Part shown: piece by piece, positions 740-49,635 of the stretch | Numbering within the stretch: position 1 is the stretch's first letter | Layout of the letters: every line of letters starts with the position of its first letter | NCBI GenBank assembly: GCA_951406725.2 | Contig: OX597818.1 | Coordinates: 122,202,001-122,266,000, forward strand | Length of the DNA: 64,000 nucleotides | DNA from: Octopus vulgaris | Lineage: Eukaryota | Direction of reading: 5' to 3' | Translations under genes and position numbers: made by a program | The notes under the pieces: generated by a model | The model's database searches: none | The model's input: only the letters and a program-made list of their open reading frames with translations | Told to the model about the DNA's origin: nothing

Positions 740-1908
740 CAGGGGTTGGACAAAATAATGGAAACACTTAGCATCATAGCATCATAATTTTGAAATATCT
801 ATAAAGATTGTTTATTTTTATGTTTTCTTATTAATTATTTAAAATTCATTTAAATGACGGATCTATCGAACTTTCAAAGAAGTCAAATTGTTGGTGCTCG
901 ATGGCAGGCGCTAGCGTAACAAAAAACAGCAGAAATGTTTGGTAATTCAAAGTACTGTCTCCAAAGTAATGACAGCCTTTAAGAAAGAGGGGAAACCTCC
1001 TCGTCGAAACAAAACTCCGGAAGAAAACCAAAACTTTCGGGTAGGGACCGTCGGACTCTTACGCGAATTGTTAGAAAGGATCACAAATGTACAGCTTCCC
1101 AAAATTACTGCAGAGCTTAATGACCATCTCGAGAACCTAGTTTCCACAAAAACTGTTTGCCGGGAGCTGCAGAGATTTCACGGGAGAGCTGGATTTCACG
1201 GGAGAGCTGCAATCAGGAAGCCACTACTTTAAAAAAAAAAACGTTGCAAAACGTTTAGAGTGGAGTAAAAACCTACAGAATTGGTCCCTAGAGCAGTGAA
1301 AGAAAGCTGTTTTCTCGGACGACTCATCCATTACCTTATTTCCGACCACCGGTCGAGCATACGTGTGGAGACAGCTAAAAGAAGCATTTGACCCACACTG
1401 CCTTCTTCAAACTGTTAAACATGGAGGAGGATCTGTGATGATCTGGTTGAGGTTGCTATTTCCTGGAAATCCGCCGGCCCAATGGTTTCCCTTCATGGCA
1501 GAATTAATAGTCAAGACTATTTAAGCATCTTATTTGATCAAATTCATCCTATGTTTGCGGAACTGTTTCCTGGGGTAAACGCAATCTTTCAGGATAATAT
1601 TGCACCAATTGGACCAGCTAAAGTTGTTATTGAATGGCATGAGGAATATTCTAGTGGAGTTGAACATCTTATCTGGCCACCACAGTTCCCAGATCTCAAT
1701 ATTATTGAACATTTATGGTGCATTTTAGAAAAACAAGTAAGGAGTCGATATCCTCCACCATCATCACTACAGGAATTGGAGACCGTTTTAGCTGAAGAAT
1801 GGACAAAAATTTCTTTGGAAACAATTCAAACTTTGTACGAGTCCACACCTCGTAGAATTCAAGTTGTAATTTGAACTTTAAGGTTTCCATTATCTTGTCC
1901 AACCCCTG
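740..1908 (+). mobile_element. Full-length decayed Tc1-like DNA transposon (probable DD36E)
   Basis: TIRs CAGGGGTTGGACAAAATAATGGAAAC / GTTTCCATTATCTTGTCCAACCCCTG followed by TA. Internal transposase fragments present. Confidence 0.93.
855..1874 (+). pseudogene. Frameshifted Tc1 transposase
   Basis: Translated motifs GFHGRAAIRKPLL, VFSDDS, TVKHGGGSVMIW, FQDNIAP and WPPQFPDLNIIEHLW, interrupted by stops and frameshifts. Confidence 0.9.
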
Positions 1909-4100: not shown

Positions 4101-4654
4101 CATTCTCTTATTCACTATATCTAAAATCTAATGTCATTCTCTCGAAGACTGTAGACATAAAGCTGAGACATATTTTCGTTACATCACATTCAATATGTTG
4201 ATAAACACACACACACACACACATACACACACATCTAAATTGTGCTGACAGACTTACACAATCAGAAACAAACACGCACGTACGCATCCATAAATACACA
4301 TTTATCAAACCTGCATAGACATACGAAATCTTTTATACTTCAGAGATTTGTAACAAGATCTTTATTTAAGATTGCAGTTACACCAGGGCATCGCTTTGAA
4401 CGGTTTTATTCGAACAAATTGATCCAGGTCTCGGTTTTGTTTTTAAAGTGTGATAGTTACTATATCGGTCTCATATGGCGAACCGCTAGTTTAATGAGGC
4501 ATAGACAAACCAATACAGGTTGTGAAACGGTTGTAGGGGAAAGCACTCACACCCACATATACACACACAAACACATACACATATGCATGCACGCAAGCAC
4601 ATACAAACAAGCGCACGCGCACACACACACACACACATGCACACATACGCATAT

Positions 4655-4785
4655 AGACGGCAGGCTTTTCTGCTCACAAGATCCGGGGCTATAATAGAAG
4701 ACACATCACCAAAGTGCCTCGTAGTGGGACTGAACCCGGAACCATGTGGTTGGGAAGCAAACTTCTCACCTCACATCCACATCTT
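4655..4785 (-). mobile_element. SINE-A 5' part (duplicate at ~10523-10653)
   Basis: Matches the CCCAACCACATGGTTCCGGGTTCAGTCCCACT head seen in other copies. Confidence 0.75.
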
Positions 4786-5797
4786 TCTTGATTTATAGAG
4801 CTGGATGCTGTTGAAGATGCTTACGTTTACGAAGACGAAATCGACTGAGACAACATTGCTAACAACAATAATAATGACAACCACAACGATGCAGATCACA
4901 ATGGTTACAGCAATGATGTCTCCATTGTCGAAAGGGATTGCATGCACGGTAAGGATGACAGAAATGGTAATAACAACAGTAATGACAGCAAACATGATAA
5001 TAACAAAGACGACAACACAAAAGGAAAAAATAGAGAACGTAACACGTGCATGCTGACAACGTTAATAAGTGCAAGAGTAATTTTGTTCCTTTTATTATCT
5101 GAGTACGTATTTCAATTAGACAGGGCAACAACAGTCGACATTATAATGATTCACATACCACTGAGGTCTATTGTAATGGCGGAGTTCATTAAGTTATTTC
5201 GCTTTCATTCATCTGTTTTCACTCGATCTTACTCGCTTCCTCTACCTCCATACATCCTTTTAATCATTCCTCCGCGCTGACAATATTACTCTGGCCACCG
5301 TTTCTGAAATTGCTGCTCATGTGTGTGTTTTATCTGTGGCATAAATAACTACGTCACTTTTTTTTTCGTTTATTTGTTTCGTTATTTATGTATTTATTTC
5401 CTGTATTTATTCATTATCTGCTTCGTTTGCATATTTTATTGTTTGTGCATATCTAACAGATCAACAACTGCATTCAGTATCACATTACAAACCGAGTTGG
5501 ATATAAAACATTTGAAGTGCGCTTTCGTCTTTGTCTTCCAGAAGTCATAAAATCGATAACGACGTTACATGCACACGTTCCGCAACACAAACACACATAC
5601 ACGTATGTATTTTTATGTATACGTGTGTATGTATGTATGTATGTATGTATGTATGTATGTATGTATGCATGTATGTATGCATGTATGTACGTATGTATAA
5701 TGTAATATGTGTATATATTCATACAATTGTATATATATATATATAATACAATGTAATATTATATATGTATATATGTATATGTATATCTATCTATTTA

Positions 5798-9180: not shown

Positions 9181-11666
9181 ATGCATACTCTCTCTCTTTC
9201 TCTGACGCACACACACACTCATATTTTGTGGTGTGTGTAGAAGTACGTGATTAAATACCTGCAGTGCACTTCTAAATATCCACTATCGATGTTTTCCGAT
9301 AACTCATTACTTTCGTTACCATAGCGACCCAAAAATCGTTTAGACAATTTTGCAATTCCGTGAGTTGTTTCGGGACACATCTTGCACAAACATCTTTACT
9401 AACGACATATATGTTGCGTAAGATTTCATTGAACTCTCACTGAATACATTTGCTTATTATTTACCACATCACCATTAGTTCCGGTTTGGCCAACTGAAGC
9501 TTTTCACGGACTTGATCAGTGGTGTCAACATCACAGGACGTGATCTGGCCTTCGACTCAAATGTTGAAGCATGATGAACGTGCAACTATTTCTGCAAACT
9601 GTCAATCCGTTCGGAGACAGTCCATGGTGGCAACATCCTGTTCACATGAAGAAGCAAAGTCACACTATCCAACATATCTTCCTGGACATAAAAAGATGTA
9701 ATTTAAGGAATATTTGGTTGTTCTTTCCCAGATTGAGCGACGGCTTTTGTGTGTGTTGTGTGCATCTCTTTTTTGATATTTGCTATACATTATTAGCCCA
9801 AAGTCAACACACACGGAAGCAGGTCTGTGGTGAACGTTATCTTAATTGTTACCATATTCTGTGCCGGAAACCTTGGAATATATAGATTTGATTGATGTGT
9901 GAAGTGCTGGCTGTTTGTATCATTTTATCTAAGACATAGCCCATTAAATCTTTGGGTCACCAGATATACATTCTCTTATTCACTATATCTAAAATCTAAT
10001 GTCATTCTCTCGAAGACTGTAGACATAAAGCTGAGACATATTTTCGTTACATCACATTCAATATGTTGATAAACACACACACACACACACATACACACAC
10101 ATCTAAATTGTGCTGACAGACTTACACAATCAGAAACAAACACGCACGTACGCATCCATAAATACACATTTATCAAACCTGCATAGACATACGAAATCTT
10201 TTATACTTCAGAGATTTGTAACAAGATCTTTATTTAAGATTGCAGTTACACCAGGGCATCGCTTTGAACGGTTTTATTCGAACAAATTGATCCAGGTCTC
10301 GGTTTTGTTTTTAAAGTGTGATAGTTACTATATCGGTCTCATATGGCGAACCGCTAGTTTAATGAGGCATAGACAAACCAATACAGGTTGTGAAACGGTT
10401 GTAGGGGAAAGCACTCACACCCACATATACACACACAAACACATACACATATGCATGCACGCAAGCACATACAAACAAGCGCACGCGCACACACACACAC
10501 ACACATGCACACATACGCATATAGACGGCAGGCTTTTCTGGTCACAAGATCCGGGGCTATAATAGAAGACACATCACCAAAGTGCCTCGTAGTGGGACTG
10601 AACCCGGAACCATGTGGTTGGGAAGCAAACTTCTCACCTCACATCCACATCTTTCTTGATTTATAGAGCTGGATGCTGTTGAAGATGCTTACGTTTACGA
10701 AGACGAAATCGACTGAGACAACATTGCTAACAACAATAATAATGACAACCACAACGATGCAGATCACAATGGTTACAGCAATGATGTCTCCATTGTCGAA
10801 AGGGATTGCATGCACGGTAAGGATGACAGAAATGGTAATAACAACAGTAATGACAGCAAACATGATAATAACAAAGACGACAACACAAAAGGAAAAAATA
10901 GAGAACGTAACACGTGCATGCTGACAACGTTAATAAGTGCAAGAGTAATTTTGTTCCTTTTATTATCTGAGTACGTATTTCAATTAGACAGGGCAACAAC
11001 AGTCGACATTATAATGATTCACATACCACTGAGGTCTATTGTAATGGCGGAGTTCATTAAGTTATTTCTGCTTTCATTCATCTGTTTTCACTCGATCTTA
11101 CTCGCTTCCTCTACCTCCATACATCCTTTTAATCATTCCTCCGCGCTGACAATATTACTCTGGCCACCGTTTCTGAAATTGCTGCTCATGTGTGTGTTTT
11201 ATCTGTGGCATAAATAACTACGTCACTTTTTTTTTCGTTTATTTGTTTCGTTATTTATGTATTTATTTCCTGTATTTATTCATTATCTGCTTCGTTTGCA
11301 TATTTTATTGTTTGTGCATATCTAACAGATCAACAACTGCATTCAGTATCACATTACAAACCGAGTTGGATATAAAACATTTGAAGTGCGCTTTCGTCTT
11401 TGTCTTCCAGAAGTCATAAAATCGATAACGACGTTACATGCACACGTTCCGCAACACAAACACACATACACGTATGTATTTTTATGTATACGTGTGTATG
11501 TATGTATGTATGTATGTATGTATGTATGTATGTATGCATGTATGTATGCATGTATGTACGTATGTATAATGTAATATGTGTATATATTCATACAATTGTA
11601 TATATATATATATAATACAATGTAATATTATATATGTATATATGTATATGTATATCTATCTATTTA

Positions 11667-47290: not shown

Positions 47291-48762
47291 ATATGCAATA
47301 TATAAATTTTTAAGACACTAGCATATAATTTTGAGGAAATTTTGATATTTTTCTACCATACAGAGTGACTTTTATAAGCTCCTCTCTTGACTTTCGGTAC
47401 CAGTCAGTAATACGTTGGTGTCTACTTGTTTAATCATATGACTATATCAAAACATTGGCTATGTTACAATTAATAGAGAAGACATCATAGAAGCTATGGC
47501 GATATGATTCTATCTAACCTGTTTCTTGAGTCAGATATTTTTGCAGAAAGGAAGCTTTATTTTTTAGTTCTATTGTAGAAAGCTACACTTCTATTCACTA
47601 CCGCCTTCCTCTTGTTTTCTTTTATATATTACTTGTTTTGCTTTTTTTTTTGTAATTATAGTCTGCTTTCTTTCATTTTCTTGAAATACACCATATGACT
47701 TATAACAAACTTTCATTGATCGAATACTTTCTGTTTTATTCAATAAATTTCTTATTTCTTTTCTTACTTGATTTGGTGTCTTATTTATTATTTATTAAAT
47801 GTTTAAAAACCCAATAATTAATACGAAATACGAAAATAACAATTATTTTCTCGTATAGAAATTACCATTATAATTTTTTGTTGTTTTCTTTTGCTATTAT
47901 AAATTTGCCTCAAGAATTTCCTACTAAATTAAAAAGAAAAAATACCAGAAAAAAATGACTTAAGAAATTCAAAGAGAATATATTCAAAAATTTCGAAAGG
48001 AAAAGATAATGAAAATAAAACAAAAAATAAATAAAACGAAAAATTCATAAAAACAATCAAGGCTAAACTAACTAAAGAGACTTCTTTGTTCTTAATATGA
48101 AAATAGCAAAAGAAAAAAATATTGGTTTTTGAAAATATAATTGATCGCTACAAGTTTCAAAAGCATTTTTTTTTTATTGTGATATCACACCCTCCCTACC
48201 TTACAATAACTATGGTCAATTTATGAGTTATTGTTCTATTGTTTGTCTTAAGACGGTGGGCAATCTCGACAAAGCAAGGGTGAGATATGTATATTTTATA
48301 TGCACTAAAAACTTCATCACGAAACCGTATCCTTATTAGAATGCTGTTTTTCTTTTATATAAGACAATGGATTTTGGGAATTTGTTTCATAGCATAGCAT
48401 ATTTGATTGATCAGGACTGTAGACAGAGTTCTCATGCATGCTTTATATGTGTGTGTGTATGTATACATACATACATGCATATATATATAAGCAATAATAA
48501 ATCTCTGAGCGAGGTATAAACAGTAGCTGCACGACAACGTGAAGTATATTTGCCACTTAAATGTGGTTAACCCATAAGAGTGGATGCTAATATAGCTTTT
48601 AGCCCCAGGAGAACACCTCCTCCAGCTGGTTATTGACACACTTTCTTTGCCCTATAAGTACTAGCAAAGGGAAGCCATCCTTCGGTTTTTGACTATGAAC
48701 ATGTGTGTGTGTATGTAACAAAAGACAGAGAAAGAAAATGGAATATACGAGAAACTTTATTG

Positions 48763-48856
48763 CTCATAACGGTCGTTTCGACACATCCTGTATCGATCCC
48801 TCGGGGATGGGACACTGTGCAACTGGTTGTAGTGCAGACGCATCTCGTCAGGTGAG
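48763..48856 (-). ncRNA. Type I HHR motif, branched stem II
   Basis: CTCAC-CTGACGA-GATGCGTC...GATGTGTC-GAAAC-GACC-GTT-ATGAG. Confidence 0.7.
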
Positions 48857-48977
48857 GTTAGGCAGTGAACATGTTTGATCGGTTTACGACTATGAACATG
48901 CCCGATACTTGAACATAAATATATGTGAGTTTTTGTGTATATAGTCGTAAAGCGATCAAACATGTTCACTGCCTAAC

Positions 48978-49066
48978 CTCACCTGACGAGATGCGTCTGC
49001 ACTACAACCAGTTGCACAGTATCCCATCCTCGAGGGATCGATACAGGATGTGTCGAAACGACCGTT
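48978..49066 (+). ncRNA. HHR motif lacking the 3' strand of stem I
   Basis: CTGACGA 48983-48989, GAAAC 49055-49059, GTT 49064-49066, then (AT)n. Confidence 0.6.
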
Positions 49067-49162
49067 ATATATATATATATACACAAAAACTCACATATAT
49101 TTATGTTCAAGTATCGGGCATGTTCATAGTCGTAAACCGATCAAACATGTTCACTGCCTGAC

Positions 49163-49256
49163 ATCACCTGACGACATGCGTCTGCACTACAACCAGTTGC
49201 ACAGTATCCCATCCTCGAGGGATCGATACAGGATGTGTCGAAACGACCGTTGTGAG
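49163..49256 (+). ncRNA. Type I HHR motif, branched stem II
   Basis: TCAC-CTGACGA...GAAAC-GACC-GTT-GTGAG. The first stem II base is C, giving a mismatch. Confidence 0.65.
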
Positions 49257-49302
49257 CAATAAAGTTTCTCGTATATTCCATTTTCTGTTTCTGTCTTTTG
49301 TT

Positions 49303-49336
<34 letters not shown>

Positions 49337-49337
49337 T

Positions 49338-49635
49338 GAAGGCACATGGCTTAGTGGTTAGGGTATTGCACTCACGATTGCGAGATCGTGGGTTCGATTC
49401 CCAGACCGGGCGTTGTGTTGTGTTCATGTTCAAAGCACTTCACTTCCCGCTGCTCTGCAATCATTTCCTCATCGGACATGTGGCACATAGTGCACCTGTA
49501 CAGGTAATGCCGATTTGATGAAGTGAGAGAGCTTATGCAAGCACAAACATTTCCTCACAATAAACAAATCATCTGTGTGGTTATTCGGCTAGAAATTGCC
49601 GAACCCGCATACATCGTCTAACGACGGGAGAGTCC
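49338..49635 (+). mobile_element. SINE-B (long form)
   Basis: A box TGGCTTAGTGG, B box GGTTCGATTCC. Confidence 0.82.

What the first reader, a model, noticed from the sequence alone, without database searches (positions are those of the whole stretch)
48702..49310. Triple HHR array with a branched stem II; the middle copy stops at the predicted cleavage site
Seen: consensus CUCAC-CUGACGA-GAUGCGUC-[~49 nt with two hairpins, UGCA..UGCA and GUAUC..AUCC(C/U)UCGAGGGAU..GAUAC]-GAUGUGUC-GAAAC-GACC-GUU-GUGAG. One minus and two plus copies are nearly identical, so probably young. The middle copy ends at GUU(49066)+AT and runs into the start of the third. Known: Penelope pLTRs and retrozymes use tandem HHRs, often as dimers, to process their RNA. 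Inference: a small non-autonomous ribozyme-bearing retroelement with an extra structured domain on stem II. The junction may record reverse transcription of a self-cleaved RNA. GUU is a weaker triplet, and each copy has at least one defect.
Basis: partly seen in the sequence, partly recalled or inferred. Interest (0 to 1): 0.75.

Follow-up and report, generated by a model that had tools for sequence, protein, structure and literature searches.

The report
Triplicated Penelope end, long-armed hammerhead
This is the broken-off, decayed end of an old Penelope-like jumping gene, present three times side by side, likely through slips during local copying rather than through self-cutting; its predicted self-cutting RNA has an unusually long arm, as do thousands of similar motifs in this genome.

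Summary
The three hammerhead motifs are real (96-97% alike; one joint also in contigs of two studies). They are not a young non-autonomous element. They are the decayed 3' end of an old Penelope-like retrotransposon with Hydra-clade endonuclease motifs: relatives elsewhere are 77-90% identical and lie downstream of broken GIY-YIG genes. All three copies share a 12-nt deletion and a broken stem III palindrome (GACC for GATC), have no close sibling elsewhere, and are predicted to misfold. The middle copy's end is ambiguous (GUU or GUUAU). It shares alleles with the inverted copy, which also reads GUUAU, and joins a TA run by microhomology. Family 3' ends are not enriched at the cut (0 of 45; one other case found genome-wide). 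Family 5' ends do cluster there (7 loci within 6 nt, none 7-16 nt upstream), through cleavage or palindrome fold-back. The long stem II is real and covaries: 77 nt core to core in the family against 12-26 nt in published Hydra hammerheads; 4,191 long-armed motifs match genome-wide. This scan noted long-armed Hydra hammerheads before on other DNA (13 notes). Verdict: ordinary decayed locus, new variant of a known ribozyme.

The parts
48488..48683 (-). Truncated arm of a different, high-copy repeat whose outer end abuts a TA run; joined directly to the fourth piece. Possibly part of the same copying event.
   Evidence: 79-88% identity to copies in other loci, which continue differently after 48683
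48682..48703 (-). Fourth piece: 20-22 nt of the unit (unit positions about 45-66)
   Evidence: (family D14, 91%)
48702..48943 (-). Copy c1: whole 242-nt unit, inverted. Core at 48851-48845; predicted cut between 48768 and 48767; G>A just after the cut weakens stem I.
48941..49068 (+). Copy c2: unit positions about 51 to 176-178. Core at 48983. Ends at GUU (49066) or GUUAU (49068); ATA microhomology at its start, TAT at its end; shares three alleles with c1 against c3.
49067..49092 (.). TA run and degenerate CA-like run: likely the remnant of the original microsatellite target
   Evidence: sequence; the run is inside the duplicated unit
49093..49163 (-). Short inverted arm inside c3: reverse complement of the family's downstream 'tail', fused to the hammerhead arm at a shared TGAC(A/G)TCA stretch
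49161..49258 (+). Hammerhead motif of c3: core at 49168, stem II with 49-nt insert (12-nt deletion against the family), GACC loop III, GUU at 49249-49251, G10.1>C
49258..49303 (+). AATAAA and the family's usual near 3' end (about 50-60 nt after the cut), followed by a CA run
   Evidence: 21 of 45 independently found pieces end at +48 to +71
49076..49317 (+). Copy c3: whole unit; likely the original insertion
   Evidence: outgroup to c1 and c2; joint with c2 in other runs

Best explanation
The stretch is the decayed, non-coding 3' end of an old Penelope-like retrotransposon, likely of the Hydra clade, present in three near-identical copies that likely arose here by microhomology-guided template switching at a TA run. 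Shown: the family has the order reverse transcriptase, GIY-YIG endonuclease, 3' UTR, hammerhead, AATAAA, near end, optional tail and far end, and it inserts at TA or CA runs as head-to-head pairs. Inferred: one short insertion (an inverted tail arm plus a hammerhead arm; unit c3) decayed by about 12% and lost 12 nt. Much later, copying jumped onto this unit at the TA run on its left and produced the inverted copy c1 and the fourth piece; c2 was copied from the c1 lineage, leaving at ATA and returning at TAT. That puts c2's end at or 2 nt past the cut without any cleavage. Predicted for the ancestral element, untested: the ribozyme cut the element's RNA as a dimer through the 10-nt stem III palindrome, probably with help from the element's protein, and carried a conserved 77-nt stem II arm with at least one side helix. 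The three copies here are predicted to be inactive.
For: ORF link: an endonuclease remnant, shared 3' UTR pieces and the hammerhead lie in order on one strand in L269 and L318. Of 16 endonuclease-homologue loci fetched (of 40 listed), 8 have a same-strand family-like hammerhead downstream, 2 a partial piece, 2 only an opposite-strand piece and 4 none. L333 has YRDD, a CxCX5C linker and CxxC before the conserved E, the Hydra marks of PMC8557442 section 11. Layout: 25 of 29 multi-piece loci are head-to-head with 3' ends outward (101 loci examined), the typical layout in PMC8557442. Age and locality: copies are 11.5-12.6% from the family majority while 85 other pieces have a median of 15.5%; the best outside hits are 77-90%; the window's 17-nt variant occurs 7 times in the genome, 3 here and 4 in divergent relatives. 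c2 from c1: shared alleles at unit positions 85, 88 and 177; c1-c2 differ at 3 sites, c2-c3 at 4, c1-c3 at 5 over positions 51-176. No 3' enrichment at the cut: 0 of 45 pieces found by upstream sequence end between -4 and +25; 0 of 9 loci have a TA run directly after GTT; 1 clear break at the cut among 99 deviant rows, of which the 12 most deviant were fetched. Misfolding: stem II pair probability at most 0.01 in c1, c2, c3 and c2+c3 against 0.58-1.0 in 7 of 9 relatives; the hammerhead fold costs 2.6-5.5 kcal/mol over the best fold; the stem III self-duplex is -5.6 against -12.4 kcal/mol for the family palindrome. PMC11167929 reports that cleavage is not needed for insertion in vitro and that no RNA reads end at the cut in that element.
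Against: The joint is letter for letter compatible with an end exactly at GUU, and one other family copy (L347) does break exactly there. Family 5' ends cluster at the same site: 7 loci between -6 and -1 against none between -7 and -16 (about 0.001 if uniform over 16 positions, though microhomology shifts apparent ends). The A shared by c1 and c2 at position 177 may simply be the first base of the TA run, and the other two shared alleles could come from conversion between the adjacent inverted arms. DNA-level switching and reverse-transcriptase jumps leave the same microhomologies. Folding energies ignore protein help and dimers; 2 of 9 relatives (L016, L205) also score low for stem II. No tree of the reverse transcriptase was built.
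Confidence: 0.7

Rival explanations
1. c1 and c2 are the two arms of one later retro-insertion into the TA run beside c3, made in trans by an active Penelope-like protein, and the right arm was primed on an RNA whose 3' end was made by self-cleavage at GUU.
For: c1 and c2 form a head-to-head pair between TA runs, as family insertions do. c1 ends at the family's normal near end. The joint fits GUU exactly. L347 breaks at the same site. Young Penelope-like families with open frames exist in the genome.
Against: The copies were already decayed and are predicted to misfold. 0 of 45 unbiased pieces end at the cut. c1 carries flanking microsatellite on both sides and reads GUUAU. c1 itself spans the site uncut. 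It needs an RNA from the very locus next to which it inserts. PMC11167929 found priming internal to the RNA, on uncleaved template.
Confidence: 0.15
2. All arms were made in the original insertion by repeated reverse-transcriptase jumps and were later homogenised by gene conversion between the close repeats.
For: Partial tandem plus inverted truncated copy is the textbook layout (PMC8557442); inverted arms 37 nt apart can convert (established knowledge, recalled).
Against: All copies share the 12-nt deletion, the tail fusion and flanking microsatellite remnants; only 3 of 101 family loci have same-strand neighbours; identity is uniform over the whole 242 nt.
Confidence: 0.1
3. A young non-autonomous retrozyme-like family that amplifies as 185-nt tandem units through circular RNA.
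For: c2 and c3 are direct repeats 185 nt apart; retrozymes are described as derivatives of Penelope ends (bioRxiv 10.64898/2026.07.22.740005).
Against: No sibling in the genome; c2 lacks a complete motif, so the preprint's criterion of two consecutive complete units fails; the family is linked to ORFs.
Confidence: 0.04

Closest known systems
Hydra clade of Penelope-like elements, including Hydra-1_Obim (Craig et al. 2021, PMC8557442; passages, section 11, supplementary S1 sheet, S2 table and alignment rows seen)
   Same: C-terminal GIY-YIG with CxCX5C linker and CxxC before the conserved E; TA targets; type I hammerhead at the 3' end; GUU triplet common (10 of 26 rows); partial tandem and inverted truncated arms; tail at one end only.
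   Different: Published Hydra hammerheads have a loop 2 of 3-10 nt and 12-26 nt between the core halves (counted); this family has 77 nt with a side helix, and a 4-nt palindromic loop III. Its tail is about 130-140 nt, not 30-40. Its UTR spans 2.3-2.9 kb in two decayed loci (insertions included), against whole elements generally under 3 kb.
Dimeric minimal hammerheads of metazoan Penelope-like elements (Cervera and De la Pena 2014, PMC4209133; parts 1-2 of 4 read)
   Same: Type I; short stem I (4-5 bp); 7-8 bp helix II base; 1-2 bp stem III with palindromic loop; pairs on opposite strands 100-700 bp apart; mostly single truncated copies.
   Different: No long or branched stem II is described in the parts read; the window copies have lost the palindrome.
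Poseidon element PAc of the green anole (Frangieh et al. 2024, PMC11167929; parts 1-2 of 4 read)
   Same: Two alternative 3' ends that bracket a tail, AT-rich targets, hammerhead upstream of the ends.
   Different: Other clade; compact ribozyme overlapping the start codon; no genomic clustering of 5' ends at the cut is reported in the parts read.
Non-LTR retrozymes (bioRxiv 10.64898/2026.07.22.740005; parts 1-2 of 5 read, supplements closed)
   Same: Short non-coding repeats with type I hammerheads, related to Penelope ends.
   Different: No array of complete units, no dispersed siblings, ORF-linked family.
PLE-X hammerheads of spike mosses (PMC8557442, S2 table)
   Same: Precedent for an enlarged loop 2 (35 and 29 nt), flagged there as deviating.
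   Different: Half the length, endonuclease-less plant elements, no conserved side helix shown.

Membership tests
Type I hammerhead ribozyme | Core CUGANGA, GAAA and NUH in order | tested here: met
   All three copies
Type I hammerhead ribozyme | Stems I, II and III can form around the core | tested here: met
   Met for the family: stems I and II with compensatory changes across relatives. In the window each copy has a defect: c1 stem I mismatch, c2 no 3' stem I strand, c3 G10.1>C.
Type I hammerhead ribozyme | The hammerhead fold is the favoured fold of the window copies | tested here: not met
   Stem II probability at most 0.01; 2.6-5.5 kcal/mol above the best fold; prediction only
Type I hammerhead ribozyme | Self-cleavage at NUH | not testable with these tools
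   Needs an assay; no RNA holder listed
Penelope-like element 3' end | Lies downstream of a reverse transcriptase and GIY-YIG frame on the same strand | tested here: met
   Not in the window; in relatives L269, L318 and 8 of 16 fetched loci; YRDD in L333
Penelope-like element 3' end | Inverted and partial tandem truncated arms; optional tail at one end | tested here: met
   25 of 29 multi-piece loci head-to-head; two end clusters at about +60 and +200
Hydra clade | CxCX5C linker before the endonuclease | tested here: met
   Intact in L270 and L333, with a stop inside in L269, third C lost in L318
Hydra clade | No CCHH motif; CxxC before the conserved E and CxH after the conserved N | tested here: inconclusive
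   CxxC seen in L270, L269, L333; CxH seen only in a related long-armed family (L239); remnants are decayed
Hydra clade | Insertion into (TA)n | tested here: met
   Ends abut TA or CA runs in the window and in most loci listed
Hydra clade | DKT and RWK motifs in the N-terminal part; phylogenetic placement | tested here: inconclusive
   No DKT in a reverse-transcriptase context in 16 loci, which are truncated; no tree built
Hydra clade | Canonical compact hammerhead (loop 2 of 3-10 nt) | tested here: not met
   77 nt core to core in the family, 65 in the window
Non-LTR retrozyme | At least two consecutive tandem units, each with a complete hammerhead | tested here: not met
   c2 is incomplete; 3 of 101 family loci have same-strand neighbours
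Non-LTR retrozyme | Dispersed near-identical copies; circular RNA | tested here: not met
   No sibling; circular RNA not testable here

The most novel reading that the evidence does not exclude
Octopus-type Hydra elements carry hammerheads whose 50-80 nt stem II arm (with a conserved side helix in this lineage) is a docking site that lets the element's protein switch cleavage on, and the cut is written into the genome: truncated copies begin at it, and the middle copy here and L347 record reverse transcription primed on the cleaved 3' end. That would be a genomic footprint of hammerhead cleavage in a Penelope cycle, which the papers read here do not report.
Probability: 0.17. Interest if true: 0.72.

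Novelty: new variant of a known kind. Interest (0 to 1): 0.36.

Why it matters
The locus itself is ordinary decay. The family matters more. What the hammerhead does for Penelope-like elements is called unclear in PMC8557442, and PMC11167929 found it dispensable in vitro. Here thousands of copies with a long, covarying stem II escape Rfam and would fall outside the 7-17 nt spacer used for core searches in PMC8557442, so ribozyme counts in such genomes are probably too low. The cluster of 5' junctions at the cut and palindrome gives a countable test of cleavage in vivo: a census in the young, near-identical families can separate ends exactly at the cut from fold-backs at the palindrome.

Tried and rejected
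Rfam gave no hammerhead. A PNGLN-like reading just upstream of the hammerhead looked like an endonuclease end; it was dropped because the true endonuclease lies 2.3-2.9 kb upstream in this family. The sharp left 'end' at a microsatellite 600 nt before the cut first suggested an 800-nt non-autonomous element; further UTR was then found beyond it. L205 seemed to link a related hammerhead to a Neptune-like frame; rejected because L200, of the same frame family, ends at a TA run before it. The young 781-residue family found with PF01541 is unrelated to this family's UTR. I first took the endonuclease for Nematis (recalled); the motif text of PMC8557442 points to Hydra. caught a flanking DNA transposon and was discarded. 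RNAalifold found no consensus on 29 mostly decayed copies and only the distal side helix on 11. Two folds of the insert were compared: the one favoured by energy in 16 of 24 sequences has little double-sided change in its branch helices; the other has 4 of 5 such pairs in the distal helix but none in the UGCA hairpin; the exact branch topology is unsettled. The window-specific GUAUC/GAUAC helix is a by-product of the deletion and one substitution. Expression: no RNA holder listed; run X7 gave only pieces of related repeats. Two rows that seemed to start at the cut (L334, L337) were chance matches and were dropped. The last-letter filter removes most majority-like copies, so these calls give no denominator. 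Six paper searches showed no description of long or branched stem II hammerheads in octopus or Hydra elements; subscription journals are not covered, and Lunse et al. 2017 on dimeric variants is recalled, not read. Only part 2 of 59 of the PMC8557442 supplement, plus search hits, was seen.

Full report
Observation. The window is G000:C5:122202001-122266000 of a 2.8-Gb animal genome; size and repeat types suggest an octopus (my inference). Three copies of one unit are present: c1 (48702-48943, minus), c2 (about 48941-49066/68, plus) and c3 (49076-49317, plus). Each has CUGACGA, an 8-bp stem II closing a 49-nt insert, GAAAC, the loop GACC and GUU. c1 and c3 differ at 8 of 242 sites. The c2-c3 joint is held by a 215-nt contig in runs X1 and X2 of two studies, and a 92-nt piece identical to c2 occurs in run X5, labelled as another organism. 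Rfam does not detect the motif.

The family. A search with 180 nt of c3 gave 49 matches among 40 scored of 1,357 candidates; outside the window they are 77-90% identical. Alignment of 37 pieces shows that the family has a 12-nt longer insert and the palindromic loop GATC; 33 of 50 readable copies have GATC, 1 has GACC, and 42 of 50 have GUU. The window copies are 11.5-12.6% from the family majority, against a median of 15.5% for 85 other pieces, some of them duplicates or sister families. The window's own 17-nt variant occurs 7 times in the genome: 3 here and 4 in divergent relatives. So the near-identity is local and recent, and the template was an old, damaged copy.

Anatomy of the unit. From the left, c3 holds a microsatellite remnant, about 70 nt that are the reverse complement of the family's downstream tail, the hammerhead arm, AATAAA and the family's near end at a CA run. 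Family pieces end in two clusters, about +60 and +200 from the cut. Of 101 loci, 66 have one piece, 6 none, and 25 of the 29 with several pieces are head-to-head with 3' ends outward. PMC8557442 describes this layout, with a tail at one end, as typical. The unit is therefore one small, complete insertion with its flanks.

The parent element. Walking upstream led through a microsatellite tract to a decayed GIY-YIG frame. In L269 the order is endonuclease (5374-5628), shared UTR, tract, hammerhead (8493), all on one strand; L318 shows the same for a close family member. Of 16 endonuclease-homologue loci fetched out of 40 listed, 8 carry a same-strand family-like hammerhead downstream, 2 a partial piece, 2 only an opposite-strand piece and 4 none. 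L333 shows YRDD, the thumb region and a CxCX5C linker, in step with the Hydra-1_Obim rows in the supplement of PMC8557442 and with the Hydra definition. No tree was built, and DKT was not seen.

The long arm. The pattern CUGANGA, 50-80 nt, GAAAC-GATC-GTH has 4,191 genomic matches (control 1; first 100 listed). By eye they fall into about ten families. Most fold as long unbranched hairpins of 54-70 nt; the group of this locus has 74-79 nt. Several are ORF-linked with CxCX5C or related endonucleases. Stem I sequences differ between families but stay paired in most. In 24 relatives, stem II and its extension have double-sided changes at 9 of 15 pairs (73.6% of cells paired) and the distal side helix at 4 of 5 (82.5%); the whole fold beats 500 shuffles (at most 2 reach it on any measure) and all slid controls on the score. 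These controls do not remove relatedness, and the fold was drawn from these sequences. A long arm with at least one side helix is supported; its exact topology is not settled. The 26 published Hydra rows have loops of 3-10 nt.

Are the window copies active? Predicted not. Stem II pairs have probability at most 0.01 in each copy and in c2+c3, against 0.58-1.0 in 7 of 9 relatives. The hammerhead fold lies 2.6-5.5 kcal/mol above the best fold, and the stem III self-duplex falls from -12.4 to -5.6 kcal/mol. PMC4209133 explains why such motifs need the palindrome to work as dimers.

The middle copy's end. c1 reads GUU-AU-GAG, so c2 may end at GUU or GUUAU. c2 shares alleles with c1 at unit positions 85, 88 and 177, and is closer to c1 (3 differences) than either is to c3 (4 and 5). 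Both ends of c2 have 3-nt microhomology with TA runs, and a fourth piece of the unit joins c1 to a truncated unrelated repeat. Family 3' ends avoid the cut: of 49 loci found by upstream sequence, 45 gave a piece; none ends between -4 and +25, three end at -5 or -6, 21 at the near end, 6 at the far end, and 10 are broken upstream. No TA run follows GTT directly in 9 loci. Among 99 deviant rows, the 12 most deviant were fetched; one breaks exactly at the cut (L347) and one 8-16 nt later. Local template switching is the simpler reading (0.7); priming on a cleaved RNA stays possible (0.15).

A result against my reading. Family 5' ends do cluster at the site. Of 25 rows, 13 continue upstream, 1 is chance and 11 rows (7 loci after duplicates) break between -6 and -1; none breaks between -7 and -16. 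Four of the 7 are fold-back joints, which the 10-nt palindrome explains without cleavage; three join other DNA at about -2, -3 and -6. Among 30 loci found by the tail, one starts at -1 and one at -6 (one such start is expected by chance with probability about 0.2). This hints at cleavage in the ancestral element but does not prove it. PMC11167929 found cleavage unnecessary for insertion and no reads ending at the cut in its element.

Comparison and novelty. It works like a dimeric Penelope hammerhead and meets the Hydra tests that could be run, except the compact stem II. It fails the retrozyme test. Six paper searches showed no description of the long arm in these elements; passages of PMC3088659 and PMC6155905 did not either. 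This scan has noted long-armed octopus Hydra hammerheads before: 13 notes, 8 shown; none lies near this locus or matches its sequence. The locus is ordinary; the arm is a new variant of a known ribozyme; the 5' junction cluster is the part most worth following.

Noticed in passing
window 48488-48683: Truncated arm of another high-copy repeat that ends at TA runs and forms inverted pairs elsewhere (L244, L127, L062); it also sits beside family copies in L025 and L139. Possibly another Penelope-like end; not identified.
   Followed up: partly
window 49336-49420: tRNA-like short repeat (Rfam tRNA below threshold; very high contig depth), probably a SINE, inserted at the CA run after c3.
   Followed up: no
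L205:5983-6103 and the inverted arm of L214: In a sister family the tail is followed by a second hammerhead-like motif with a compact stem II and an ACUC-A-GAGU stem III, the same stem III as a published Hydra row. Two different hammerheads in series in two loci.
   Followed up: no
L191:1664-4006 and many rows: A very young Penelope-like family with a 781-residue open frame (RT, CxxxxCxxC linker, GIY-YIG) in many copies with identical scores; likely recently active.
   Followed up: partly
L210, L223, L224, L235, L237, L238: A young Hydra-type family with an identical 57-nt stem II hammerhead in many copies, a clean predicted fold (z -3.7) and a long asparagine-rich linker in its frame; the best candidate for assays.
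   Followed up: partly
L026:1506-1616: The same 12-nt deletion between two TGCAC repeats as in the window, in an otherwise divergent copy; probably recurrent.
   Followed up: no
window about 4239-5280 and 10107-11217: Near-identical open frames at two places about 5.9 kb apart point to a local segmental duplication.
   Followed up: no
window 1419-1874 (+): Fragment of a Tc1/mariner-like transposase (motif recalled), 151 codons.
   Followed up: no
window 62608-62680 (+): Another CUGAUGA...GAAA spacing with a 5-bp closing stem but no clear stem III.
   Followed up: no
L341-L344 (C21, C35 twice, C44): One family copy starting 2 nt before the cut is present four times, three on small contigs; a larger duplicated block or assembly redundancy.
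   Followed up: partly
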